From positions 2,944,001 to 3,008,000 of the forward strand of contig CBDCTJ010000007.1 of the NCBI GenBank assembly GCA_965222115.1: a DNA stretch of 64,000 nt, given 5' to 3'. Below, in pieces: positions 26,954 to 39,353 of this stretch. A program made the translations under genes and the position numbers. The stretch comes from Planctomycetota bacterium (GTDB lineage Bacteria; Planctomycetota; PLA2; JAEUHO01). The notes beneath the pieces were generated by a model. It ran no database searches. It was not told the origin of the DNA and saw only the letters and a program-made list of their open reading frames with translations. Position 1 is the first letter of the stretch. The number at the start of each line of letters is the position of its first letter.

Positions 26954-27579
26954 AACGCGCCTGCACCTACATTGTTTCCTTGATCACTGTAGGATGCATA
27001 ACGGCCTGTTCCTATGCACTACCGCCACCGTATCCCGGCCCGTTTGTTGCCAAGAAACAAAGCGACCGATGGGAGCGTGCAATCGAGAGGCATGCACAGC
27101 ACGGCGATTGGATCCTCATGCGCGGCTATACGCCGTTTCATACACTAGTCAGCGCCGCGGGAAATACGCCATGGTCCCATGTGGGGATCTACGACGCACA
27201 CGCACGATGCATAATCGATGCTGCGCCACTTGGCGTGCGCACCAAGCCGCTTCACACCTACCTGTGGCGAATGCACCACATGCAGGTTGTACGTCCTCAT
27301 CAGCAGTCACCGCAGCGCGCGGCAGCCGCTGTTCAATTCGCGCGATCACGCGTGGGCAGAGGATACGACATTGGTATTGCCGTTGGCAGGCCACACCCTG
27401 AACGATGGACCTGTGTGGAACTCATGCTGGATGCGTACTCGATTCGCGTTCATTCACAACCGGATCGACGCGCGCTGTTTCCCCACGTGTTGCATCGCTT
27501 CGGTTCGGTGGTCTATGACACGGGGCCACGTGTGAGAGCGCCCGCGTGCCGCCCTCGCTGTCGTTCATCCCCAAAGTAG
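26950..27579 (+). CDS. YiiX/YebB-like permuted NlpC/P60 papain-like lipoprotein
   Basis: Lipobox ITAC, GDWILMRG, WSHVGIY, GRGYD, WTCVELM (His before Cys = permuted order); ATGA overlap with upstream gene. Confidence 0.8.
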   Translation: MKRACTYIVSLITVGCITACSYALPPPYPGPFVAKKQSDRWERAIERHAQHGDWILMRGYTPFHTLVSAAGNTPWSHVGIYDAHARCIIDAAPLGVRTKPLHTYLWRMHHMQVVRPHQQSPQRAAAAVQFARSRVGRGYDIGIAVGRPHPERWTCVELMLDAYSIRVHSQPDRRALFPHVLHRFGSVVYDTGPRVRAPACRPRCRSSPK

Positions 27580-30500
27580 AAACGCAGCCCAGCAGGCGGG
27601 GCTTGCGTCAACATCCTTCGCGGCGATGGCCTCCAACTTGGCGGCGCGCAGGGCGTCCATGGGCGAAAGGCCTCGGCCCAGATGGGCGTCGTAGAAGCGC
27701 TCAAAGAAACGCGCGGTCGCCTTGTCTTCAACGCGCCACGCACTCGCGATGACACGACGCGCACCCGACCAAAGAAACGCGCGGCTAAGTCCCAGCAGGC
27801 CTTCGCCCCACGTAGGAACGCCACGCGCCGAGTTGCACGCCGAAAGCACAACCAGATCCGCATCCACCTTGGTGGTAGCGATAGCACTTGCACTCCACAC
27901 CGCATCATCGGCAAGCACCAGTCCCGACGCATCGGCGCGCTTGGCATTGAGTACGCCGTGGCATGCGAAGTGGGCCACACGCCATGGACGTGTGGCCTCC
28001 GCGTAGTCATTCGCTACGCGCGTCACTGTGGTTTCATCGCGGGTCAATACAGTTGTCGATTCGTCCTCGAAGTACTGCCTGATGTTTGCCACTTCGCTTT
28101 CGCTTGCGGGTAGCTCGGGAAACGTACCCGTCGATGGCGGATTGGCTACAGCGAAGAAGCCCTCACCGCGAGAGGCGCTCGTCCGTAGCGTCATGGCAGC
28201 GGTAACACTCGGAACGAATGACACGGCGTAAGACGAGAGTACTCGTTGACCATCAGCACGTATAAGGGCTTCGAAAGGTAGCGTTGCGAGAGATCCATCC
28301 GGCGAAATCAGCAAATGCGTCTTGCCTTTCAATGTCACTTCGAGTGGCTTAACCAGTCGCGTGTAAAGCTGAGTCGCAAGAGAGTCAGACTTTGCACCCG
28401 GCGTTGAGAGTCGACGACGATACGCCATAACGAGGTCAATGAGGCCATCGTTAGAGTCCAATCGGTGAAACGTTACGGATTCGCTGTCAATGATCATGAC
28501 CGAAATCGCGTCGGCAAAGGAGGTGTCATAGGCAACATACGCTGTGTGCTTATCCAGCGTGGTTTGAAACACGCTCAGTTCCGCGGGGCGAATACGCGAC
28601 ACCATGGCGCTGCGCCGTGAATGCTTGGCAATGGCCGATACGACGACGTTGCGCGCGGTCCATGCCGCCTCAAGATCCGAGGCAGCACCGGCTGCTTCGT
28701 CGCCGCCTCGCCTCAACCGCCGAAGCGAAACTACGCGACGTTGGGCACGTCGGAGTCGGGCACGACTCTCGCGATCCGCCTTGGCAAGCTCGTCGGGCAA
28801 TCGAACATGTGCCTTGAGTGTGTGCAGGGCCTGCGTGAGTTGCGTTGCGCGCCCAACTTCAAAGAGCCAATATCCATCCGCTTTGATCTGGGCAACATCG
28901 TCGCCTTTGGCACCGCGCAAAAGTGCATGCACGGCCTCGAGGCCCAATCGTGCAAGCCGCGATGTACGCCATTGGCGGTTCATCGCTGTGCCGGGCGGTA
29001 ATCCTTCGTAGCTTTCGATTTGAAACGTGGCGGCGGACTTTGCGGCTTCGAGACCCTCGCGAAACAACCCACTGGCAATGGCCGCCTGGGTAAACATTTC
29101 ATCGATGACACCAATCGAACCCTCAATCTCGGCAGGTTCATCGCGAAGGGCGCGCAACTGAGCAAGGGCCTCTTTCGGCTTTCCGCGGTGAACATCGAGC
29201 CCCGCACGGACAATACGTGCCGAGCGCAAATACGTCTTGGAGGGAAGGGGACGAAAACTCTCCATGGCTCGGTCATAGTGCGCTTCCGCAAGATCCCAGC
29301 GCTCTTGAATCTCTGCCAACTGACCGAGATGAATCAGACTCCGACCACGCAACTCGGTGACGTCGTCCGGCTTGAGCAACGCAAGGGCCTTGTTTGCCGC
29401 CGCCTCCGCTTGATCCATTTCCTTGAGATTGAAGTGAATTTGGGCGAGCTGTAGCTGCGTTTCCGCCACCTTCAACCGCCAGGCCTGCGATTCGGCAAGC
29501 GACTTCATCGCAAGCACAACGTCCTTCGCGCGCGCGTTCTCGCGCAGCACGCCGAGTAGCGTGGCCTGAAGAGAGAGAAGGTTGAAGCGCGTCTTCGGGT
29601 TGGGCTTTTTCAACTTGAGTGCAAGCGCTTTCTCAATGGACTCCATCGCCGGAGCGAACCGATTCATTGCAAAGCACACTTGCGCTCGCCGGTGGAGGCC
29701 CGATTGCAACTGCGCTACATGACCCCTCTTCGTCGCGTAGGCAATGTGCTCGTCTGCGACCCGTAGCTCGGGATCGTTTCCAGGCAGATCGCTTTCGAGG
29801 TTCCAGCGAAGTGTGAGCACGTTGTACATCTTGTGCGGATCACGCGCCTTGAGGGCCGCGGTGTAGGCACGATCCAATACCGCGGGAACGTCTTCGTACT
29901 GGCCGAGTTTGATTCGACGGCTCGCGATGTTCGATCCAATGCGCGCGATGGTATCGGCATCACCGCTCGCCAACACCGCATCCCACGCACGCTGCTCATC
30001 GACTCGTATGCCACCAATATCTTGGAGTTGCTGACTGTATGTCGCCGCGACCCGATACGCACGTGCAGCTTGAAGGAACCACGCATGGTCCATGGCCAGC
30101 TTGCCGGCCGCACGATTTATCGCTCGCGCTTCCTTCTGCATCCCAAGACGACCGTAGGCGATGCTTAGCCAGCGGTCATAGCGCCAGCCTAGAAAACTGG
30201 GTGGCAGTTTTGCACGCAGCCCATCGTGCAACTTCGCGACGCGCAACACGGTATGGGGCAGCCCAAGATTGAGGAGTCGTTCAAGTCGATGGCCGACACG
30301 ACACACGCGCAGCTCGACGGCCCACTGCTCTTCCGTCAGCGATGACCAACGCTTGACCTCTCCACGAAGCGCGGCCGAACCGGGCAGGTGCTTCGTATGC
30401 CCGGCGACCTTGTCCAACAACGCCAAGAACCTTGTTCGCTCCTCAGGGTCATCATTCTTTTCGGTCGCGTGGACATGGGCGCCCACAAGTGCAGCGCCTA

Positions 30501-30684
30501 GCTCCAAGACGTCGTGTGAATACGTAGCGAGTGTTGCCATGACTACCGCAGGCTTGCCTGCTTGATGTGCGGCATAGATCGCTTCCGCCGTTGGCGCAAT
30601 GCGTCCACCCGGATTGTCTTCCGCGGCATGCGCCGACAGCACCCCAAACATCAGGCAGCCACACAGGGTGAAGAAGCGACGCAT
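27565..30684 (-). CDS. TPR-CHAT caspase-like protease with N-terminal signal peptide
   Basis: LLISPDGSL, LPASESE, HFACHG, LVVLSACNS, GEGLLGLSRAF, SAWRVED, WAAF; long helical TPR-like region; MRRFFTLCGCLMFGVLSAHA N-terminus from ATG 30684. Confidence 0.9.
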   Translation of the reverse strand: MRRFFTLCGCLMFGVLSAHAAEDNPGGRIAPTAEAIYAAHQAGKPAVVMATLATYSHDVLELGAALVGAHVHATEKNDDPEERTRFLALLDKVAGHTKHLPGSAALRGEVKRWSSLTEEQWAVELRVCRVGHRLERLLNLGLPHTVLRVAKLHDGLRAKLPPSFLGWRYDRWLSIAYGRLGMQKEARAINRAAGKLAMDHAWFLQAARAYRVAATYSQQLQDIGGIRVDEQRAWDAVLASGDADTIARIGSNIASRRIKLGQYEDVPAVLDRAYTAALKARDPHKMYNVLTLRWNLESDLPGNDPELRVADEHIAYATKRGHVAQLQSGLHRRAQVCFAMNRFAPAMESIEKALALKLKKPNPKTRFNLLSLQATLLGVLRENARAKDVVLAMKSLAESQAWRLKVAETQLQLAQIHFNLKEMDQAEAAANKALALLKPDDVTELRGRSLIHLGQLAEIQERWDLAEAHYDRAMESFRPLPSKTYLRSARIVRAGLDVHRGKPKEALAQLRALRDEPAEIEGSIGVIDEMFTQAAIASGLFREGLEAAKSAATFQIESYEGLPPGTAMNRQWRTSRLARLGLEAVHALLRGAKGDDVAQIKADGYWLFEVGRATQLTQALHTLKAHVRLPDELAKADRESRARLRRAQRRVVSLRRLRRGGDEAAGAASDLEAAWTARNVVVSAIAKHSRRSAMVSRIRPAELSVFQTTLDKHTAYVAYDTSFADAISVMIIDSESVTFHRLDSNDGLIDLVMAYRRRLSTPGAKSDSLATQLYTRLVKPLEVTLKGKTHLLISPDGSLATLPFEALIRADGQRVLSSYAVSFVPSVTAAMTLRTSASRGEGFFAVANPPSTGTFPELPASESEVANIRQYFEDESTTVLTRDETTVTRVANDYAEATRPWRVAHFACHGVLNAKRADASGLVLADDAVWSASAIATTKVDADLVVLSACNSARGVPTWGEGLLGLSRAFLWSGARRVIASAWRVEDKATARFFERFYDAHLGRGLSPMDALRAAKLEAIAAKDVDASPACWAAFLLWG

Positions 30685-30900
30685 GCGTTCTACTTTAGCC
30701 GGAACCTGACGTGTTGGGTGAAGGTGAAGATGCCTTGTTCGTCGGGCGTGAGCCGTTTCGCGAGGAGGGAGAGAGGCGCAGAGGGGATGCGTCCCGTTGG
30801 CTGGTGGCCCAGAATCGGGAAGTGTCGGAACTCGATAATGTAGGATTCTTTGGGCGTGAAACGCCACAGTGGCGCTCGCCTTAGACACGGGCTCGCTCTA

Positions 30901-31015
30901 GTTCGGCCCTTCGATGCGCACGTCGTGGATCTTCGATCCACTTGTGCTTACTCAGGGTCTCCGACTACGTCGGGTCTTCGACCCTCGTTGTCTCCGACAC
31001 GCGTCTTGAGATGTC
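30901..31015 (-). ncRNA. unidentified structured element, copy A
   Basis: Ungapped 87/115 match to 36829-36943 with compensatory changes in stems; G-U pairs favour the minus strand. Confidence 0.65.
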
Positions 31016-31235
31016 TTGGCATCTTGTTGTCGAAGCAGAGTTCATCTTGACGTAGCCATCCTTCTGTGCGAAACGAGTCGCGTTCGACGGCGAACAGAGA
31101 AATCACACTCCATGACATGTGTGGATTTGGTCCTGATGCAGCCTTCAACGCGAGACAGGGAGAGCAGTGGGTCCATAAGCGAATTGTACGTTGGCTCGTG
31201 AATGCATGCCCGTTCGTAGGCTAAACTGGTTCACC

Positions 31236-31547
31236 ATGTTGGAGCAACGCCCCGATTCTGTACTCCTTACACGCGTCGGCATGAACTACGAAGCCACGCT
31301 CCTTGCGGGCCGACTCAAGGCACACAGCGTCGATGTCGTTATCGAAGAACTCATCGCCTATGACGACGCCGCGGGAAATTCGGGCATTCGCGTATGGGTG
31401 CCGGAAGCCCAACTTAAACAAGCTCAAGAAATCTTGGCGGAGCTAGAAGCTGCGCGAGACACCCTCACCGAGAGCGAACTCGAGCGCCAGGCGATGAAAG
31501 CGGGCGAAGTCGTCGAGACTAGAGAGACTCCCCGCGCTGAAGACTAA
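31236..31547 (+). CDS. DUF2007-like putative signal-transducing small protein
   Basis: EATLLAGRLKAHSV..IRVWVPEAQLKQAQEIL pattern typical of DUF2007; ATG at 31236. Confidence 0.7.
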   Translation: MLEQRPDSVLLTRVGMNYEATLLAGRLKAHSVDVVIEELIAYDDAAGNSGIRVWVPEAQLKQAQEILAELEAARDTLTESELERQAMKAGEVVETRETPRAED

Positions 31548-31722
31548 CGGTCGTGGTCACACTTTGTTGGTGATCCTTGCCAGGCGGTCGGCATCACGGA
31601 ACGTTAATCTCGCAAAATTTGCCCAACGTCAAGTACTTAGCTGCACCCATTTCGAACCATGCGCCAACGCCACATGTCGGTGCAGGACCTGCAGGCGACA
31701 TCAAAGACACGACACACCGGTT

Positions 31723-32145
31723 TCAGCCACGCGAACCTCGACTCGCGGCACTTGACTCAAGACGAAGAAGTACAGTCACAAGGATCAGTATCAATCCCTG
31801 GATGAACACTGTAACGCCCGTGGGCAATCGCGCACTGCCAAGACACCCACAACTGAAGTCGGATGGCGTCCAGGGAAGCAGCACTACGGAAGTTGCGGCT
31901 GCCCCGATGAATCCCCAATACAACGCGAGTGCGGTCGTATGCCGGTAGCGGGGAGTCACTAGTGTTGCTGCTACGACGAGTTCTATCAGCGTCACGATAA
32001 ACCGTGCAACTGAAGAAATGCTAAGCAGTTCGAAGGGCCAGAAATTTCTAGACAAAATCTTTGCTATCGCACTCGAAGTCAAGACAAGCGAGATAATCAG
32101 CGTGAGCACAAAACGCCAATTCGTAGCTCGAGTTTCACCGCGCAT
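31723..32145 (-). CDS. MauE/DoxX family membrane protein
   Basis: Four hydrophobic segments, AIAKI, IELVVA, SCGCLGS motif. Confidence 0.75.
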   Translation of the reverse strand: MRGETRATNWRFVLTLIISLVLTSSAIAKILSRNFWPFELLSISSVARFIVTLIELVVAATLVTPRYRHTTALALYWGFIGAAATSVVLLPWTPSDFSCGCLGSARLPTGVTVFIQGLILILVTVLLRLESSAASRGSRG

Positions 32146-32156
32146 GCTCTCTTTTC

Positions 32157-33980
32157 CTAGCGAACGAACTTCACGATCACTTGTGGTGTGGCCACCTCGC
32201 TGTCCTCAACTCGGAACTCATGGCTGACAAATTCGAGCCCTGGCCCGTCTACAAAGAGCGTGTGAATTCCGGGTTTAGTCGGCTGAAAACCAAACACATC
32301 CAACTCGATCGGATCGCGGCTAATAGACTGATGCACATACATCGTACGTCTTAGGCCGCCAAGAAGCGGCCAATCGGCACTGTTGTAACGCACCCGTGCG
32401 CCGATGACTCGCTCTCCGTCCTCATTAAGTAACCTCGGCGAAAATCCGCACAATACTGGCCACGTGAAACTCAATGAGACTACTGACTCGGAGTCCCCAG
32501 ACGTTTGACTGACAGGAACATAATTCGATCCGCCTAAGCCGTCGATAAGCTGTACTCGAAGTTCATCGAAGAGTGGCACCTGCGAAAACACCCAGTGCCC
32601 CTCCATATCCTGAGTGCCATATACGATCCCCCCTCCTACTCCTCCTCGCGCACTGTATGCGAGTTGCGGCACTGCAGATCGCCGTAGCTCGGGATACCCA
32701 GGCCTAGCTGACTTTGTGCGCACACCTACAAACCTCTGCCCAATTGCGACAGGAACCATTATTTCGAATGGCCGAATGCTCGTACCCAATTCGGTCAACT
32801 TCACTGTTGGCACGATCGCCCTCACGGGCATGTATCCGGGAATTCGCGATAGAACCACGACTTTCTCAGCTGGAAGATCACTCATCGGAACGACGAGCTC
32901 ATAGACCCCCTTGCGGATCCCGGCGTCCGAGGGCAAGCGCTGCCACGTATCGGCAGCCCAAACGACTCTTGAGTGGAATAGATTTCGAACTATCCCTGCT
33001 TGCGGCACATGAACTTCCACTTGTGTCGGACGGATCGTAATGGGGAGTCCACTGTCCGCGTTCAGAAATTGAATTCGGATGCCGACACTCGGCATGAGTA
33101 CGAGATCCACAGAAGAGTCGCTTGACCAATTCGCGTCGAGAGTTCGCTCGCGCAGGTTGGCTGCTTTGCCGGGTTCCTTCAAAACAAGTTCACTGAGCAC
33201 TTGAGAATCAGCCTGTGCGGCGCTCTCATGCCACGCAGTAACCTCTACTGTTCGTGAACTAGCACTGTATGGCAAAGGAGCGCGCCAGTTTCCACTCTCG
33301 TCTGATCGAGCTATCGACGTGCAACCTTCGGTAGACCCCAGAGCGTTTAGGCTCTTTGACCTCGCGACGCCAAGAGTCCGAATCAACACTTTCGCATCAC
33401 TAATTCCATCTCCCTTTGGTGTCCGAACTGTGCCTCGAATCCAATCGGCTCTCATCAACGCAAGTTCATTACGGTTGTCTTCTGAATTTAGCTCAAAAAC
33501 ATGCTGCGCAAAACCGCGTACGCGGACTGTCACTCGCCATCGGGCACGCTCAAGAGCGTCTCGTCGAATGCGCAACTCGCCAGTGCCTGGATCCACGTCG
33601 AAAGGTATTGTGGCTTCGCTCCGACTGTGCGGATCGGCGAAGACCGCCTGCTCGCCACTTACGTTTGAGCCGCTTTGGCTATCAAATAGGCGAAACTGTA
33701 CATGCGAATTCCCGGAGTCCTCGTTGGTACGCCGATCAGGTTTGCCGGAGTTTGGCGAGTGTGGCGCAACCAGCAAATACGGATCGATTCGCGGTCTCGG
33801 CCGAACGGTGGCTTGCACATATGGATCGGGCGGCAGTGAGACGATCAAGATGTCATAAAAAATGCAGAGCGTGAGCGATACGCCAAGACAAAACGCACAA
33901 ACCGCGAACCTACGGGATCCGCGGAACCCCGGAAACCTACGCGCTGTCTTGGACTCTACGTCCATGGGGAATGGGGACAA
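32157..33980 (-). CDS. membrane-anchored beta-sandwich (carboxypeptidase-regulatory-like) protein
   Basis: One N-terminal TM, then IRGTVRTPKGDGISDAKV / LLNEDGERVIGARV Ig-like repeats; start may be ATG 33965. Confidence 0.6.
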   Translation of the reverse strand: MSPFPMDVESKTARRFPGFRGSRRFAVCAFCLGVSLTLCIFYDILIVSLPPDPYVQATVRPRPRIDPYLLVAPHSPNSGKPDRRTNEDSGNSHVQFRLFDSQSGSNVSGEQAVFADPHSRSEATIPFDVDPGTGELRIRRDALERARWRVTVRVRGFAQHVFELNSEDNRNELALMRADWIRGTVRTPKGDGISDAKVLIRTLGVARSKSLNALGSTEGCTSIARSDESGNWRAPLPYSASSRTVEVTAWHESAAQADSQVLSELVLKEPGKAANLRERTLDANWSSDSSVDLVLMPSVGIRIQFLNADSGLPITIRPTQVEVHVPQAGIVRNLFHSRVVWAADTWQRLPSDAGIRKGVYELVVPMSDLPAEKVVVLSRIPGYMPVRAIVPTVKLTELGTSIRPFEIMVPVAIGQRFVGVRTKSARPGYPELRRSAVPQLAYSARGGVGGGIVYGTQDMEGHWVFSQVPLFDELRVQLIDGLGGSNYVPVSQTSGDSESVVSLSFTWPVLCGFSPRLLNEDGERVIGARVRYNSADWPLLGGLRRTMYVHQSISRDPIELDVFGFQPTKPGIHTLFVDGPGLEFVSHEFRVEDSEVATPQVIVKFVR

Positions 33981-33993
33981 ACGCGCTCGTCCC

Positions 33994-34488
33994 CTACTGG
34001 CATCTACAACTCGATAGCTTGTGTCCGTTCTCGTTAAAAAGAATCGACTCCGTGCAGTTCAAGCTCGCGGGTGAACAAAGCCCCGAGCATCCCTGAAAGG
34101 TAACAACGGATGGATTTTGAGAGTGATCAACGATTATGATCATGTCGCACGCTATCTGCGGCTTCAGTGGCCCCGGCCCATCCGGATCAATAGTATCAAA
34201 CTGAGTGCTGCTTCCCCCGCTGGGCAAATTTGTACACCCACACGTTGAGACTGCAGTTGCACCACTTTGACTTCTGACGACCAGTTGGCACTCGGCACCA
34301 ACGGGTAGAAGAAGGGGACAATCCCCGAAACAGTGAACCGTGGTCGGCACCGGATTGCCCTGCGAATCTGGTTCCCACTGCCCGGTACCGGTACAGGCGC
34401 CCCCGCCTCCTGCCGCTAGTGCGTGGGCTCCGCCTATCACGATTGCTAACGCAGCCACAACTGATGCTAAGAATGACTTGTTTTTCAT
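33994..34488 (-). CDS. secreted cysteine-rich protein with two 6-Cys repeats
   Basis: Signal peptide (..GAHALA), AAGGA RBS, 12 Cys in two matching spacing patterns. Confidence 0.8.
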   Translation of the reverse strand: MKNKSFLASVVAALAIVIGGAHALAAGGGGACTGTGQWEPDSQGNPVPTTVHCFGDCPLLLPVGAECQLVVRSQSGATAVSTCGCTNLPSGGSSTQFDTIDPDGPGPLKPQIACDMIIIVDHSQNPSVVTFQGCSGLCSPASLNCTESILFNENGHKLSSCRCQ

Positions 34489-34982
34489 GCTGTCATCCTT
34501 TCTCTGTGGGCTATCATGATATCATAGCATAGGGACTTGCCGATTCAACCTAAATACGCAGCCGCATATTTTGTTCGAGCATCCTGCTCTTCGTGTGGGT
34601 CACGGCTGTATCGGACTGGTTCCGACGCGGTCACTACACGCTAACAACATGAAGAATAGCGCCTTTGAACGGCTCAGTATCTGGGTTTGCACGACCCCAC
34701 TAGCTTGGACAGCCCAATCTAGCCAACATCATTATCTTATCTTACCGCCCGCACCATTTTAGGGGCGGCAGGACACTAAATCGCCAGATTCCGGCCCACA
34801 CAAGGAGCAGTAGAGCCGTAATTTTCCCACCAAGTAGGTGACTTGGGACTCTGACGTGCCCCCAATAGCGCTGTCAATGCAGAAACGGAAGCGCAACCTC
34901 GCCTGCGTAATTCATTAGTCAAGACGCTTGACTACGGACGCAGACGATTGCGCAGTTCCGCCGCCCATGGTATGGCCGCACG

Positions 34983-34988
34983 TGTCAA
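34983..34988 (-). promoter_or_regulatory. outward-facing -35 box (TTGACA) of the IS circle-junction promoter
   Basis: On circularisation TTGACA-17 nt-CAAGAT is formed across the junction, as expected for IS110/IS1111. Confidence 0.6.
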
Positions 34989-35043
34989 GTTGCGCGTGGA
35001 GTGGTTGGTTGAGTTCTCGGATCAGGGCGCTTTCGGGTTGGTC

Positions 35044-35211
35044 GAGAGGAAGGGAGGCTGAACGACGCTAGCCTGGTATTCGTGGATTGGGTACCACAGG
35101 GAAAGTGTTCGTCGGGAGATGCCTCGATCTACAGCCGTGGATTCAGATGCCGTGCATCCTGCCACATAAGGGCGACGAGGATGTTCTCCAGTCGCGCACT
35201 CCCTTCCTCTC
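35044..35211 (-). ncRNA. putative bridge RNA / seekRNA of the IS1111-type element
   Basis: Perfect 13-bp closing stem GAGAGGAAGGGAG/CTCCCTTCCTCTC enclosing two internal-loop hairpins with segments matching target and donor junctions. Confidence 0.75.
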
Positions 35212-35246
35212 AAAACTTCTTTGTCTTTTCTTTGGATCCTCTCGTG

Positions 35247-36359
35247 TTATGCGGTTCGCTTGTGACAGTAGCTCGTGTTGTCTTGCAGTACCGCCCACAT
35301 GAATCCCACGAGTTCGCGCGCTACCGCCGTCACTGCTTTCTGACTCGGCATTCGTGCGTGGAGCCGGTGAAAGCGTCTATTGAGACGATGTTGCGCACGC
35401 CACGCGTGCGCAACAACCAAGGGGTCCTGGCCGGCTTGCCGGCGTTTCAAGCCAACACCTACGGCAGGTCGATGTCGGTATTGCCAAGCAGCTTGAACCA
35501 AGATCCGCCGTACGGTTGAGTTTCCTGCCTTGGTTATGCCGCCTCGTCGGCGACGGGGCCCACTGGAATACTCCGATACCGACAGGCCGAGGTAGTCCAT
35601 CAGTGCTCTTGGGCTCGAGAATCGTTTCACATCGATCACTTCTACGAGAAATGTCATAGCCGTAAGTGTCTTTACGCCGCGGAAACACGTGAGCCGACCT
35701 ACGGCTTCTCGGTATCGATCACTCTCGGCAACTCGCTCGATCCTGTTTTCAATCTCACTGAACTGCGAGAATTTGATCTGAAGCAGCGCGATGTGGTTGT
35801 TCAAGACGAACTGATCGTGGTGTTCAAGCTCTATGCCACGAAGCCACATCCAGAATGCGGCAGTCCAGTTCCTTTTCAATCCATACTTGAGTCCATGCCG
35901 ATCGAGCAGCTTCAAAATCATCTGTTTGGACCGATGGATCTCCCGTCGAAATTGTTCACGACAACGAACCAGATTGCGGACACTTTCTTCTTCTTCGGTA
36001 GGAATGTGAATCGCCGTAAGGAGTCCCGCGCGGAGGTCAAATGCCAACCTTTCTGCATCTCGTCGATCGGTCTTCACTCGATCTCCGGGACGCTTCGGTG
36101 CAAGCGATGGCGCAATCACAACACATTGGTGGCCCCACGATTGCATGAGCCGATGCAGCACATATCCGGAACCACTAGCTTCGTAGCAGGAGATAATCGG
36201 ACCGCGTTTCGCAATCTGAGCAATAGCACGTCGCAATGGCGCGTGCTCATTGGGAACGCGGATGACGCCTTCACACGAACCCGAATCCTCCGGAAGAATC
36301 GCAATCACCGCCTCTCTCTTATGAAGGTCGATTCCTAAGAATTGAGTAGTCTGGCTCAT
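35247..36359 (-). CDS. IS110 family DEDD recombinase/transposase
   Basis: GIDLHK, YEASG, KTDRRDA (DEDD); C-terminal Tnp20 with YSSG serine, GITKAGN, AVARELV. Confidence 0.95.
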   Translation of the reverse strand: MSQTTQFLGIDLHKREAVIAILPEDSGSCEGVIRVPNEHAPLRRAIAQIAKRGPIISCYEASGSGYVLHRLMQSWGHQCVVIAPSLAPKRPGDRVKTDRRDAERLAFDLRAGLLTAIHIPTEEEESVRNLVRCREQFRREIHRSKQMILKLLDRHGLKYGLKRNWTAAFWMWLRGIELEHHDQFVLNNHIALLQIKFSQFSEIENRIERVAESDRYREAVGRLTCFRGVKTLTAMTFLVEVIDVKRFSSPRALMDYLGLSVSEYSSGPRRRRGGITKAGNSTVRRILVQAAWQYRHRPAVGVGLKRRQAGQDPLVVAHAWRAQHRLNRRFHRLHARMPSQKAVTAVARELVGFMWAVLQDNTSYCHKRTA

Positions 36360-36499
36360 GGCTGGGCTCCTGTTGACGGACAAGTTCGATACTTGTTTTC
36401 GGGATAGGGTTCGACAATTCTTGCCGAATCAACCCCAGATGCCAAGGAGCTCAGCCTTTACCTCTCCAGCTGCGCTACTAGGGCACGGCCATCTTGTCT

Positions 36500-36597
36500 A
36501 CAGGGCGGTTTCGAATCGTGGGGATCTATTCCTAGGGCTGCGCAGCGCTTCGCGCTGCTGACCCTAGGCTATTGGCCCATGGCTCCTAAGAGGCCGT
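36500..36597. repeat. REP-like palindromic element (IS target)
   Basis: cctaggg..cagcgc-ttc-gcgctg..ccctagg long hairpin plus short terminal palindromes; a degenerate relative lies at about 36987-37047. Confidence 0.55.
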
Positions 36598-36828
36598 TGA
36601 CGGTGTTGTGGAACGTGAACGGCGATGGCGTTGGCAAGTTGCCAATCTGGAATTCGCGCACGACCTACGTTAGCGTTCGAATGATTCATCTTCGTACTCA
36701 TACGCGAGCAGGAGAGTACCTCCTGAACTCTCGATTTGTTCGTTGAACAACCGCGGAACCGTTGGGTGCGGAAACCGTGTGGATGACCGGGGCACGATTT
36801 CGCCATTACCCGATCTACGCGTCTGTTG

Positions 36829-36943
36829 ATTTGGTCCTTCGATGCGCACGTCGCGAATCAGAGATTCGCTTATGCTTACTCAGGATCTGCGATTTCGTTG
36901 GGTCTTCTACCCAAGAAATCCCCGACACGCGCGTCGAGGTGTT
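36829..36943 (-). ncRNA. unidentified structured element, copy B
   Basis: Ungapped 87/115 match to 30901-31015 with covarying stems. Confidence 0.65.
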
Positions 36944-37133
36944 CACGAATAAGAAGTTCGGGTCCTCATGTCTGAATTTGTCACTTGCGCTCCTTCAGAG
37001 CGCTTCCATTGGGGACGCAAACTCTACCAGGGTTCGGAAGCCTCACTCATGAAGATTGGAAGCGAGCTATCATCGTTGGCACCTTCGGAGCCACGTCCTT
37101 TCGATTGTCTTTAGGAATGCGGCATCCAACTTT

Positions 37134-37472
37134 CAGGCCGCGCTTGGTGGTCTTGGCGCCCTTGGTGAGATCTCTTCTCCTCTCTCGGGCGGCGCACCGA
37201 AACCGATCGCACACACACCGCCTTGCCACGCGCCGCCTCGCTTGCGCTTCGTGACTAAGCTTCTTCGTGTGCCCATTCTTGAGACGACGTGCTTGCGACC
37301 CATTCCACATTTACACGACTCGCGTCCACCAACGCTTGCGCTCTGCAACTCTGCGCCTCTGCGCGCGGCTCTTCTTCTCATCCCGCCAATGGGTCCCACC
37401 GATGCCAGCAAATGTCGCGTCCTCAGGCTGCGCTTGGTGACCTTCGTGTCCTTGGTGAGAGCTTCTTCTTCC
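37134..37472. repeat. two direct copies (290 bp apart) of a ~45-bp unit with internal 9-bp periodicity
   Basis: caggccgcg-cttggtggt-cttggcgcc-cttggtgag at 37134 and caggctgcg-cttggtgac-cttcgtgtc-cttggtgag at 37424. Confidence 0.7.
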
Positions 37473-37482
37473 AGGAGGCGCC

Positions 37483-38457
37483 CTACGACCGAAGCGCTGC
37501 CAACGACTTCAAGAGACGACGACCCGTTGGCGTCTGAGCCATGGCTTTGGGCAGTTTTTCGATCCGGCGCTGCGCTTCGTCGATGAAACCGAGGTCGAGC
37601 ACAATCACAGCACCCAGCAACCGATCCGCGTCGTCACCTGATGAATCGAGCTTCGACAACAGAGCCGCCAAGCGTGCCTGCTCCTCGATCGAGGCCACTT
37701 CAAAGGCGGCACTCGCTTCTTGGACGGCGCCACCGGTGCGTGTTTCGAGATGCCACAGGTATCGATGCCCAGGCGTCAAACTAGGTGCGTCGTCGGGCCA
37801 CGCCCATGGGCTGGAAATCGAAGTGCCCTTGAAGATAAGTTTTGCCGACGCCTCGTCCTCGATCCGAATTGAGGTTTCGTCCGCATGGTCGGGAACATCG
37901 AAATGAAACGTAGGCCCGCTTGAGGCTAGGTAGCGTCCTTTGGGAGCACGCAGCACGAGCCCATCGCGGTACACGCCGTTTCCGGGGGTCGTGGGTGGCT
38001 CATCCGCCAAATGGGGCAACGCACCCAACCACACAGCGTCTTTGCGAAGCTCCGCTGCCCGCGCAACCAACTGAGTTCGCATGGATTCCTTCGTGGCACC
38101 GCCCGAGTCCCCTTGGATTTGCCAGAGTCCAAACGCAAGCAATGCCGCGGCGGCCATAGCGAGCATGGGCAGGAAAAACTTACGTCCCGTCTCGGGTTGA
38201 GGTTGCTCTTCGTTCACGCCGGTCGAGTGCAACGCGCCGCGTTCGGCGCGCACAGCATGCCAAACGTGTCGAAGATCTTCGTCGGTGGCCAGGCGTCGCT
38301 CAAATTCTTCACGCTGATCATTCGATAGCGTGCCCGCGACGTAGGCAGCCACCGTATCCGCCACCGCATGCGCGTCGTGAGGCCTACTTTCCACGTCGAC
38401 GGCCAGCGGCACGCCGCGAACAAGCGCGCTTACCAACGCTTCGTCTTCTCGATTCAC
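37483..38457 (-). CDS. putative membrane anti-sigma factor with DUF928-like extracytoplasmic domain
   Basis: zf-HC2-like N-terminus without Cys (VAAYVAGTLSNDQREEFERRLATD), single TM, C-terminal PTFHF..WPDDAPSLTPGHRYLWHL; GTGA overlap with sigma gene. Confidence 0.7.
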   Translation of the reverse strand: MNREDEALVSALVRGVPLAVDVESRPHDAHAVADTVAAYVAGTLSNDQREEFERRLATDEDLRHVWHAVRAERGALHSTGVNEEQPQPETGRKFFLPMLAMAAAALLAFGLWQIQGDSGGATKESMRTQLVARAAELRKDAVWLGALPHLADEPPTTPGNGVYRDGLVLRAPKGRYLASSGPTFHFDVPDHADETSIRIEDEASAKLIFKGTSISSPWAWPDDAPSLTPGHRYLWHLETRTGGAVQEASAAFEVASIEEQARLAALLSKLDSSGDDADRLLGAVIVLDLGFIDEAQRRIEKLPKAMAQTPTGRRLLKSLAALRS

Positions 38458-39353
38458 GACTCTCCCTCCACCCGCTGCTCTTCCAGCTCCGTTTTGACTG
38501 CGTCGCAGACCAAGGCCCACATCCCTGCGTCGTCTTCGGGACGCTCCTGCATGCGACGTCGAAGACCCTTGGCAAGTTTGCTGACCGCTTGCTCAAGGAG
38601 GCGGCTTACGCGCGGCGCCCCCACGTCCAAGATGGTGGCAATGTCTTTTTGAGCCACGCCATCCCGATACTTCAAGACGAGCGCAAAGTGTTCGCGACTC
38701 GTCAATGCTTCAAGTGATTCCGACAGCGCTTGCCGAATGCGTTCGGCGGTCTCTTTGCCCACCGCGGCTTCCAAGGGGCCGTGTGTCACAGTCTGCTCGC
38801 CAGGTCGCGCGCGGACACTTCGTTCGGCTCGTGCGTGTTCGCGGTGGTCGCGCCGAACATCGTCGATGCGTCGGCGCAGGACGAGCGTTAGCAAGTATAC
38901 GAACAGTGCGCCGCGGCCGGTGTAGCGCCCAATGCGAAGTCGATCGCCGTCGTAGTGAGACGGCATGCTCAGATCGGAGAACGTCTCATCCGTTGCGTCC
39001 GCCGCCTGCGCAGCGCTCATGCCCTTGCGCATGGCAACGTTCTTGAGTCGGGTACGAAATGCATCACGCAACTTCGTCCACGCCGACTCCCTGCCCGCGT
39101 CGCATGCGCTGGTGAGATAGAGATCGGCGCCTACGATCGCGGCCAACGTCGACAGCCATTCGTCTTGCGATCCATCAAACCAACGACGCGTTACACGGAT
39201 TGCACGTTGATTGAAGTCCTTGCGTGGGTAGGCGTGATCGCCATACGTCGTAACGCCTCGTTCGAAGTGCGCACGCAGAACAGACGACTCGGAGAAGGGA
39301 CGACGCAACGCGCCCCCACCGTTCTCAGAAGATGGAACTTGATAAGCCGCCAT
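38454..39353 (-). CDS. ECF sigma-70 family factor with N-terminal extension
   Basis: ADLYLTSAC N-terminal motif, region 2 (AADATDETF..YTGRGALFVYL), region 4 (LTSREHFALVLKYRDGVAQKDIATILDVGAPRVSRLL). Confidence 0.85.
   Translation of the reverse strand: MAAYQVPSSENGGGALRRPFSESSVLRAHFERGVTTYGDHAYPRKDFNQRAIRVTRRWFDGSQDEWLSTLAAIVGADLYLTSACDAGRESAWTKLRDAFRTRLKNVAMRKGMSAAQAADATDETFSDLSMPSHYDGDRLRIGRYTGRGALFVYLLTLVLRRRIDDVRRDHREHARAERSVRARPGEQTVTHGPLEAAVGKETAERIRQALSESLEALTSREHFALVLKYRDGVAQKDIATILDVGAPRVSRLLEQAVSKLAKGLRRRMQERPEDDAGMWALVCDAVKTELEEQRVEGES

What the first reader, a model, noticed from the sequence alone, without database searches (positions are those of the whole stretch)
30901..36943. 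Two copies of an unrecognised 115-nt structured element with five compensatory base pairs
Seen: 30901-31015 and 36829-36943 align without gaps at 87/115. Read on the minus strand they fold into three hairpins. Double compensatory changes occur at element positions 26/51 (C-G to U-A), 28/49 (A-U to U-A), 59/109 (C-G to U-A), 76/90 (U-A to C-G) and 78/88 (G-C to A-U), plus two C-G/U-G swaps (5/16, 72/95). The terminal loop varies freely while internal loops GAGUAA/GCAUCGA (tandem G.A capable) and AA/GAC are invariant. It matches no riboswitch, ribozyme, attC or tRNA consensus I recognise. The copies bracket the Cys-rich/MauE/IS block as direct repeats. Inference: a new ncRNA (riboswitch, ribozyme or protein-binding RNA) or an ssDNA recombination structure delimiting a gene cassette.
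Basis: partly seen in the sequence, partly recalled or inferred. Interest (0 to 1): 0.85.

Follow-up and report, generated by a model that had tools for sequence, protein, structure and literature searches.

The report
Dispersed REP-like hairpin repeat family
The two look-alike 115-base elements are real and fold as described, but they are two members of a family of about 44 hairpin repeats scattered between genes, most like the REP repeats of other bacteria, and not a switch or the borders of a gene cassette.

Summary
The two stretches share 87 of 115 bases, and all five double compensatory pairs are present. They are not a pair, though: the genome holds about 44 copies. 43 of the 44 are intergenic, and 29 lie in 0.7 Mb around the replication terminus. 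The family is modular. All copies share a 3' hairpin of about 57 nt with an invariant asymmetric internal loop. Covariation supports the core hairpin and the second hairpin. No Rfam family matches. The same outer helix and loop occur as multicopy repeats in MAGs labelled Bacteroidetes, Acidobacteria, Gemmatimonadaceae and others. The family was not found as a multicopy repeat in the 60 relatives or the 150 phylum genomes searched. Copies favour convergent gene ends and form head-to-head pairs. The loop shares a U-AA-G/C-GC-AUC mismatch module with E. coli REP. I found no Y1 transposase beside a copy, no integron integrase and no excision joint. Best reading: an untagged REP-like repeat family. 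Its mobilising or binding factor is unknown.

The parts
30901..31015 (-). Copy A of the 115-nt 'type I' element. The hairpins lie at about 30996-31015 (H1), 30963-30992 (H2) and 30907-30957 (H3, the family core). Conservation among type I copies runs on to about 30893-31023.
   Evidence: It lies in a divergent spacer between the start of the CHAT/TPR gene and a DUF2007 gene.
36829..36943 (-). Copy B of the type I element. The hairpins lie at about 36924-36943 (H1), 36891-36920 (H2) and 36835-36885 (H3, the core).
   Evidence: It lies in a tandem spacer, 446 nt upstream of the IS110-type transposase ORF on the same strand.
30907..30957 (-). Core hairpin of copy A: outer helix yCCU/AGGr, internal loop GAGUAA/GCAUCGA, a 4-bp helix, a 7-bp helix and a 3-nt terminal loop. 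A covarying U-A pair inside the loop sits at window 30950/30915.
   Evidence: Alignment A3 of 34 cores is 95.7% paired, 10 of 15 pairs change on both sides, and 0 of 500 shuffles reach this. The loop pair reads 69 UA and 33 CG of 106 matches in other genomes.
36835..36885 (-). Core hairpin of copy B.
35247..36383 (-). IS110-family transposase ORF lying between the two copies. It is not part of the element.
   Evidence: Pfam DEDD_Tnp_IS110 and Transposase_20. Its similarity to the second genomic copy covers window 35550-36611 only.
36501..36633 (.). A different short repeat module that also lies near several other element copies (C1, C3, C5, C7).
   Evidence: blastn against the genome.
37133..37463 (.). 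Further repeat modules (CTTGGTG/CACCAAG-rich). On the minus strand they match the region upstream of the 'type IV' copies.
27565..30888 (-). CHAT-domain/TPR protein gene whose start abuts copy A. Listed as context only.
   Evidence: Pfam CHAT, E = 3e-62.

Best explanation
The two elements belong to a genome-wide family of structured intergenic repeats of the REP/BIME kind. What is shown: the unit common to all copies is a hairpin of about 57 nt. Its stems are kept by compensatory change. Its asymmetric internal loop is almost invariant: it can form tandem G.A pairs, and has one covarying U-A pair and an AA/GC mismatch. What is inferred: the strand that reads CCUGAGUAAG folds on its own, as single-stranded DNA, as RNA or as both. 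The invariant loop is the recognition site of a trans-acting protein, most plausibly an HUH/Y1-type single-strand nuclease like the RAYTs that act on REPs. That protein copied the unit to new intergenic sites. Copies persist mostly at convergent gene ends and around the terminus, where hairpins are tolerated or useful as RNA 3'-end structures. That two copies flank the MauE/IS block is incidental.
For: Copy number: 44 blastn matches, 44 after iterated nhmmer and 40 with covariance model R1. Structure: the core is 95.7% paired and 10 of 15 pairs change on both sides. In the 10 type I copies, 5 of the 11 pairs of H2 change on both sides. Modularity and decay: there are four 5' module types, plus internal deletions, tail duplications and half copies. 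Some pairs have sharp borders: two copies are 93.7% identical over 127 nt inside unrelated flanks. Lineage-specific expansion: 1 weak hit in 60 relatives, and 3 of 150 other genomes of the phylum with one hit each, against 30 in the own genome. Patchy spread elsewhere: 106 R1 matches at E<=1 in 47 of 61 GTDB loci, whose record titles name Bacteroidetes, Chitinophagaceae, Rikenellaceae, Acidobacteria, Gemmatimonadaceae, Bdellovibrionota and Planctomycetota MAGs. Five such genomes hold 4 to 37 copies each. There are nested copies, tandem arrays of about 90-nt units and tight head-to-head pairs. Folding strand: G.U outnumbers A.C 34 to 6 in other genomes. Position: 43 of 44 copies are intergenic. 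18 of 43 lie in convergent spacers, which make up 17.5% of intergenic length (p=1.6e-4). 3 of 43 lie in divergent spacers, which make up 23% (p=0.005). 29 of 44 lie around the skew-inferred terminus. REP likeness: E. coli K-12 REPs, read here, carry the same U-AA-G...C-GC-AUC arrangement. Passages of PMC3733652 say that this AA/GC mismatch is needed for RAYT cleavage, that head-to-head dimers predominate and that G-T pairs are common.
Against: No transposase is tied to the family. R1 finds no copy within about 1.5 kb of any of 12 Y1_Tnp loci, 2 in the own genome and 10 in five other carrier genomes. The one Bacteroidetes RAYT-like gene I read is flanked by a different hairpin. The REP tag is missing: GTAG stands at the hairpin foot in only 3 of 34 cores. 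I found no terminal inverted repeats or target duplications. The core, at 55-62 nt, is longer than the 20-40 bp given for REPs. In the own genome the G.U excess rests on one column; it is 8 against 7 without it. The replication-strand bias is weak (29 of 44, p=0.049) and the copies are not independent. Five or six copies lie in a conserved region of about 1 kb upstream of paralogous HEAT-repeat genes, so they may have spread by segmental duplication. A loop conserved across phyla would fit an RNA motif equally well. No RNA data exist.
Confidence: 0.62

Rival explanations
1. The family is one of functional RNAs. The core hairpin is a protein-binding scaffold or 3'-end structure shared by small RNAs or untranslated regions with different 5' domains. 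Multicopy status would then reflect many genes using one RNA-binding protein.
For: The internal loop is invariant across phyla while the stems vary, and a pair inside the loop covaries. G.U greatly exceeds A.C on one strand. In three loci from two MAGs labelled Acidobacterium and Vicinamibacterales the units follow a tRNA gene on the same strand. In the own genome the core always lies at the 3' end of longer conserved units, and its 5' side is never closer than 130 nt to a gene. Several copies lie in a conserved region upstream of HEAT-repeat genes.
Against: No promoter-like site lies upstream of either window copy, and no U-tract follows the hairpin. Orientation relative to neighbouring genes is mixed, both here and in other genomes. 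Truncated, nested and internally deleted copies are common. The family was not found as a multicopy repeat in the relatives searched.
Confidence: 0.25
2. The elements are folded single-strand recombination sites, like integron attC, that delimit mobile gene cassettes. The MauE/Cys-rich/IS block would be one such cassette.
For: The two window copies are direct repeats 5.9 kb apart. Two small four-helix-bundle genes elsewhere are each flanked by two same-strand copies. The hairpins have conserved unpaired bases and a variable tip.
Against: No integron integrase was found; the best TIGR02249 score is 86 bits against a cut-off of 265. The R''/R' consensus is absent by reading. Copies lie on both strands and often head to head. 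No contig in four runs joins across the block. Nine neighbouring pairs on C7 are closer than this one.
Confidence: 0.03
3. The element is a riboswitch or a self-cleaving ribozyme.
For: Conserved loop nucleotides with variable stems and many copies recall small ribozymes. Copy A sits directly upstream of a gene start.
Against: There is no Rfam hit even at E<=10. There is no constant downstream gene or distance. In other phyla a single hairpin with a 6/7-nt loop is all that is conserved. The loop reads as a nearly continuous irregular helix.
Confidence: 0.05

Closest known systems
REP / BIME elements (enterobacterial GTAG-3 type; Di Nocera et al. 2013, PMC3733652, passages read)
   Same: Both are multicopy imperfect palindromes in intergenic DNA, frequent at gene 3' ends. 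Both form head-to-head dimers and clusters, keep their stems by complementary changes, carry G-T/G.U pairs and expand in particular lineages. The two helices are separated by the same U-AA-G / C-GC-AUC mismatch module, as read from E. coli K-12. The inner 'loop' is itself a variable palindrome.
   Different: There is no GTAG or CGTC tag: GTAG in 3 of 34 cores, GNAG in 19 of 34. The core is longer, 55-62 nt. It has an extra tandem-G.A segment (CUGAG/UCGAAG). It is joined to long 5' modules. No RAYT lies beside any copy.
'Atypical secondary structures' beside class 3 and subclass 2.6 TnpA-Y1 genes (Quentin et al. 2018, PMC6006769, passages read)
   Same: That paper reports high-copy hairpins without GTAG in Planctomycetes, Acidobacteria and Bacteroidetes. 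The class 3 structures have a 5' foot CnGA, and our core carries an invariant CUGA. The phyla overlap with those where I find the motif.
   Different: I could not see their sequences: figures are not held and the supplementary table is closed. The own genome has no ORF with the class 3 HuH...Y signature. Its Y1 proteins look like subclass 1.2 and class 2. No copy flanks them.
Integron attC sites
   Same: Both are folded single-strand hairpins with conserved unpaired bases and a variable tip, and they can sit between short genes.
   Different: There is no integrase and no R''/R' consensus. Copies lie in both orientations. The sequence is far more conserved than in attC sites.
Helix 13 of 23S rRNA (S-turn AGUA/GAA), found through the 11-mer CCUGAGUAAGC in PMC4227780
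   Same: The 5' strand is identical to that of the T. thermophilus H13 construct, and the 3' strand has a GAA.
   Different: The register an S-turn needs conflicts with the covarying outermost pair of the outer helix (UA 50, CG 41, UG 8). The U of AGUA covaries as a Watson-Crick pair. The organism's own H13 differs.

Membership tests
REP (GTAG/CGTC superfamilies) | Unpaired GTAG (or CGTC) tetranucleotide at one foot of the palindrome | tested here: not met
   GTAG in 3 of 34 cores, GNAG in 19 of 34, NNAG in 30 of 34 (read). The other-phylum families have other feet.
REP (GTAG/CGTC superfamilies) | High-copy, mostly intergenic imperfect palindrome with complementary stem changes | tested here: met
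   About 44 copies, 43 of them intergenic. 10 of 15 core pairs change on both sides.
REP (GTAG/CGTC superfamilies) | Head-to-head or tail-to-tail dimers and clusters | tested here: met
   Four head-to-head pairs in the own genome, with 5' ends 118-397 nt apart. Pairs about 10 nt apart in Bacteroidetes and Chitinophagaceae MAGs. Tandem arrays.
REP (GTAG/CGTC superfamilies) | A RAYT (TnpA-REP) gene flanked by the repeats (REPtron) | tested here: not met
   R1 gives 0 matches in 12 loci around Y1_Tnp genes of the own genome and five other carrier genomes.
REP (GTAG/CGTC superfamilies) | Size of 20-40 bp | tested here: not met
   The core is 55-62 nt and whole units are 115 to about 330 nt.
Integron attC / gene cassette array | An integron integrase in the genome | tested here: not met
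   TIGR02249 scores at best 86 bits against a cut-off of 265. The assembly is 90% complete.
Integron attC / gene cassette array | Sites in one orientation, each closing a cassette, with an RYYYAAC...GTTRRRY frame | tested here: not met
   Both orientations and head-to-head pairs occur. The frame is absent by reading.
MITE | Terminal inverted repeats and target-site duplication | tested here: inconclusive
   I saw none at the sharp borders of the closest copies. No empty site was available for comparison.
Riboswitch / cis-regulatory leader | Constant position and strand upstream of a defined gene set, conserved in relatives | tested here: not met
   Contexts are mixed. Only 1 weak hit in 60 relatives.
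Any Rfam 15 family | A covariance-model match | tested here: not met
   Only tRNAs at gathering score in the window. Nothing relevant at E<=10 around the copies, nor at E<=1 in 9 other own loci and 8 foreign loci.
Kink-turn | Tandem G.A next to a 3-nt bulge, with the C-stem following directly on the other strand | tested here: inconclusive
   A tandem G.A is possible. But the covarying loop pair leaves one bulged U and a 2x2 AA/GC loop, not the standard layout. The 3D fold cannot be tested here.
Class 3 TnpA-Y1 'CnGA-foot' structures | Structures flank a class 3 HuH-Y1 gene | tested here: not met
   No ORF of 100 aa or more in the own genome carries the class 3 motif pair. The published structures themselves could not be seen because the supplements are closed.

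The most novel reading that the evidence does not exclude
The invariant asymmetric loop (CUGAG-U-AA-G / C-GC-A-U-CGAAG) defines a third, untagged superfamily of REP-like elements spread by horizontal transfer across at least five phyla. On this reading it is recognised by a single-strand DNA or RNA processing enzyme not yet identified, which is neither a canonical RAYT nor an integrase. Alternatively it is a new protein-binding RNA motif that mobile repeats carry around.
Probability: 0.25. Interest if true: 0.7.

Novelty: new variant of a known kind. Interest (0 to 1): 0.45.

Why it matters
REP-type repeats shape transcript ends, genome rearrangement and insertion-sequence targeting, yet they are well described mainly for Proteobacteria. 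Here the same loop is kept across MAGs labelled Planctomycetota, Bacteroidetes, Acidobacteria, Gemmatimonadaceae and Bdellovibrionota while the stems drift, and no cognate transposase is in sight. That gives a concrete, sequence-defined bait for finding the enzyme or RNA-binding protein that recognises it. It also warns annotators that such elements can pass for novel riboswitches when only two copies are in view.

Tried and rejected
- **S-turn like 23S helix 13** (lead): rejected, because its register conflicts with the covarying outer pair and with the Watson-Crick loop pair. The organism's own H13 differs.
- **Standard K-turn:** the layout does not fit the loop pair.
- **RAYT flanks:** none found.
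- **Class 3 Y1 signature in the own genome:** none. My first regular expression was too strict and returned nothing informative.
- **Four-helix-bundle (23S-IVS-like) genes as partner:** they are linked to 'type II' copies here, but tblastn finds none in the 61 foreign loci. I therefore do not treat them as a general partner.
- **The type I 5' module in JGI metagenomes:** one hit, a chance match inside coding sequence.
- **Sigma-70-like promoters upstream of either copy:** none.
- **RNA evidence:** no RNA holder listed among 5 runs.
- **Excision test:** contigs of 4 runs (2 samples, 1 study) show no joint between the copies. The joints listed there belong to other repeats.
- **IS110 as carrier:** copy B lies outside the similarity shared with the IS's second copy.
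- **Reverse transcriptases:** 7 genes, none tied to the copies.
- **Coding reading:** two of three sense frames are closed by UGA/UAA, and the variable-length inner stems argue against coding (by reading).
- **Technical notes:** One pair was mis-indexed by me (column 99/136); the intended loop pair was counted instead.
Full report
**1. The observation**

- The two stretches (window 30901-31015 and 36829-36943) are 87 of 115 identical without gaps. Random pairs of 115-nt windows gave mean 29.7 and maximum 52.
- They are the only long direct repeat of this kind in the window.
RNAalifold reports 27 pairs. Five have both sides changed, at exactly the positions named (26/51, 28/49, 59/109, 76/90, 78/88). 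Pair 72/95 changes from C-G to U-G.
- Each copy folds better than its shuffles, with z = -3.45 and -4.01 on the minus strand.
- Rfam gives only three tRNAs in the window at gathering score. Around the copies it gives nothing relevant even at E<=10.

**2. It is a family, not a pair**

- blastn of copy A against the organism's own assembly gives 44 matches. The assembly has 7 contigs, 4.55 Mb and 90% completeness.
- Iterated nhmmer gives 44 matches. A covariance model of the core (R1) gives 40.
- The copies share a 3' hairpin of about 57 nt. It reads: outer helix yCCU/AGGr, internal loop GAGUAA/GCAUCGA, a 4-bp helix, a small variable loop, a 7-bp helix and a 3-nt tip.
- In front of the core stand at least four different 5' modules.
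  - Type II has about 20 copies. It has a different 5' hairpin and sits at the end of (GTGGAC)n tracts.
  - Type III is a short form with a third hairpin.
  - Type IV has four copies of about 330 nt that keep only part of the core.
- Decayed copies exist too: an internal deletion, tail duplications and half copies.

**3. Structure support**

- On 34 full cores, 95.7% of cells pair and 10 of 15 pairs show changes on both sides. No shuffle out of 500 reaches this, and slid registers fall to 24-53% paired.
- On the 10 type I copies, hairpin 2 (11 pairs) has 5 pairs with double changes and is 91.7% paired.
- Hairpin 1 is 80% paired with no double change, so it rests on conservation only. In that call I mis-indexed one loop pair.
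- The intended loop pair is the U of GAGUAA with the A of GCAUCGA. It covaries: 69 U-A and 33 C-G of 106 matches in other genomes. In the own genome it reads 29 U-A, 1 C-G, 1 U-G, 1 C-A and 2 U-U of 34.
- With that pair the 'loop' reads as an irregular helix: tandem G.A, a G-C pair, one bulged U, U-A, then a 2x2 AA/GC mismatch. This last step is inference.

**4. Which strand folds**

- In the other genomes, G.U pairs outnumber A.C 34 to 6 on the CCUGAGUAAG strand.
- In the own genome the count is 20 to 8, but 12 of the 20 sit in one column. Without that column it is 8 to 7.
The counts do not say whether it folds as DNA or as RNA.

**5. Where the copies lie**

- I used my own codon-score ORF calls, which give 85% coding. 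By these, 43 of 44 copies are intergenic.
- 18 of 43 lie in convergent spacers, which make up 17.5% of intergenic length (p=1.6e-4).
- Only 3 of 43 lie in divergent spacers, which make up 23% (p=0.005). Copy A is one of these three.
- 14 lie in tandem spacers in sense and 8 in antisense.
- The 3' side of the element faces a gene's stop in 26 cases, within 75 nt in 17. The 5' side is never closer than 130 nt to a gene. That fits the core being the 3' end of longer units.
- GC skew puts the origin near 0.58 Mb and the terminus near 2.76 Mb of contig C7. 29 of 44 copies lie between 2.27 and 2.98 Mb (p about 1e-13).
- In 29 of 44 copies the folding strand has the leading-strand sequence, so it lies on the lagging-strand template. 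For type II the figure is 16 of 20. This is weak support (p=0.049 and 0.012), and the copies are not independent.
- Four head-to-head pairs occur, with 5' ends 118-397 nt apart.

**6. The cassette idea**

- Nine neighbouring pairs on C7 are closer together than the 5,928 nt between copies A and B.
- The genes in between are a DUF2007 protein, a MauE-like protein, two proteins without clear families and an IS110-family transposase. The IS's similarity to its second copy ends at 36611, so copy B is at least 218 nt outside it.
- Contigs from four runs (two samples, one study) show no joint from one copy to the other. No RNA run is listed.
- No integron integrase reaches its cut-off.

**7. Distribution**

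- R1 finds one weak match (29 bits) in 60 relatives: 28 of the same family, 11 of the same order and 21 of the same phylum.
- A broader model, R2, finds single matches in 3 of 150 other genomes of the phylum, against 30 in the own genome. It finds 1-2 matches in 4 of 150 other genomes of the phylum of an Acidobacterium-labelled carrier MAG. These searches score only 37 candidates per genome, so weak copies may be missed.
- A degenerate pattern of the loop found 61 stretches among GTDB genomes. By my rough estimate, tens of these could be chance matches.
- R1 then gave 106 matches at E<=1 in 47 of those 61 loci (44 loci at E<=0.01), many with several copies each.
- By their record titles the carriers are MAGs labelled Bacteroidetes, Chitinophagaceae, Rikenellaceae, Bacteroidales, Acidobacteria/Vicinamibacterales, Gemmatimonadaceae, Bdellovibrionota, Balneolaceae, Peribacteraceae and Planctomycetota. 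Five carrier genomes hold 4, 9, 11, 15 and 37 matches.
- Across these, only the outer helix and the loop are conserved. The inner stem is free.
- There are nested copies (L105, L109), tandem arrays of about 90-nt units and head-to-head pairs about 10 nt apart. In three loci from two MAGs labelled Acidobacterium and Vicinamibacterales, units lie just downstream of a tRNA gene on the same strand. None of these loci hits an Rfam family other than tRNA.
- The type I 5' module was not found elsewhere. The one metagenome match is a chance hit inside coding sequence.

**8. Comparison with what is known**

- A full-text search for the loop's 11-mer turned up helix 13 of T. thermophilus 23S rRNA, an S-turn. 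The register that motif needs conflicts with the covariation, so I reject it.
- The closest known kind is REP.
  - Passages of Di Nocera et al. 2013 (PMC3733652) describe GTAG- or CGTC-tagged palindromes, predominant head-to-head dimers, G-T pairs, and an AA/GC mismatch whose pairing abolishes RAYT cleavage.
  - Reading E. coli K-12 directly, its REPs have GAU-AA-GGCG...CGCC-GC-AUC. Our core has GU-AA-GCAC...GUGC-GC-AUC, which is the same module in the same place.
- Three differences are clear.
  - GTAG stands at the foot in only 3 of 34 cores.
  - The unit is longer and has an extra tandem-G.A segment.
  - No Y1 transposase gene in this genome or in five other carrier genomes has a copy within about 1.5 kb. 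One Bacteroidetes RAYT-like gene has its own, different hairpins.
- Passages of Quentin et al. 2018 (PMC6006769) report 'atypical' high-copy hairpins beside class 3 Y1 genes in Planctomycetes and Acidobacteria, with a foot CnGA, and beside subclass 2.6 genes in Bacteroidetes.
  - The overlap in phyla and our invariant CUGA make this a lead.
  - The sequences are in a figure and a supplement that I could not see.
  - The own genome has no ORF with the class 3 signature. Its Y1 proteins look like subclass 1.2 and class 2.

**9. Verdict**

- The element is real, structured and absent from Rfam. It is best read as one form of an untagged REP-like repeat family, not as a riboswitch, a ribozyme or a cassette border.
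- Shown: copy number, modularity, covariation, the folding strand in other genomes, positional bias, patchy distribution, and the lack of a neighbouring transposase or integrase.
- Inferred: recognition of the loop by a trans-acting single-strand enzyme, spread by that enzyme, and any role as an RNA hairpin at gene ends.
- Some copies, those upstream of HEAT-repeat genes, may have spread by segmental duplication instead.

Noticed in passing
own genome C7:2.27-2.85 Mb (outside the window), e.g. C7:2351107-2351478, 2669016-2669402: Eighteen small four-helix-bundle genes that, from recall and without a family scan, look like 23S rRNA intervening-sequence/Avd-type proteins. There are two subtypes about 42% identical, often in divergent pairs, all near the terminus. 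They are flanked by (GTGGAC)n tracts (27 tracts of 3-33 units in the genome) and CCCGTNA-like heptamer repeats. Four of the ten A-type genes have a type II element at the end of the hexamer tract.
   Followed up: partly
own genome C7:2146135-2149887 (L168): The 23S rRNA gene spans 3753 nt against a 2925-position model. It holds a 138-aa ORF that, from recall, looks like a LAGLIDADG homing endonuclease, so an intron or intervening sequence is likely.
   Followed up: no
own genome C7:2557132-2558568 and four other places: A 1.43-kb insertion sequence, ISL3-like from recall of the protein's look, in five copies at least 99.8% identical. Two uninterrupted paralogous sites (C5 about 77860, C3 about 462083) overlap by 8 bp, as expected for an 8-bp target duplication.
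   Followed up: partly
window 34582-34851: Another short repeat family with more than ten copies at about 80% identity across contigs C1, C3, C4 and C7. It is unrelated to the element.
   Followed up: no
window 27565-30888 and 37483-38520: A CHAT-domain/TPR protein gene, with a weak DUF928 match 6.6 kb away on the same strand. From recall, these two families often travel together.
   Followed up: no
own genome contig C6 (48 kb): G+C is 39.7% against 55-59% for the other six contigs. It may be a foreign replicon or a binning contaminant.
   Followed up: no
own genome C5:78029-79264, C7:2093111-2094343 and paralogues: A multicopy HEAT-repeat gene family whose 5' 460 nt and about 1 kb of upstream sequence are repeated together at five or six sites. 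This upstream sequence includes a type Ia/IV element and a second 100-nt module.
   Followed up: partly
own genome, 7 loci (e.g. C3:81659-82351, C7:2631845-2632531): Seven reverse-transcriptase genes in two near-identical sets (ORFs of 515 and 445 aa) plus one of 998 aa. They are probably group II introns and are not linked to the element.
   Followed up: no
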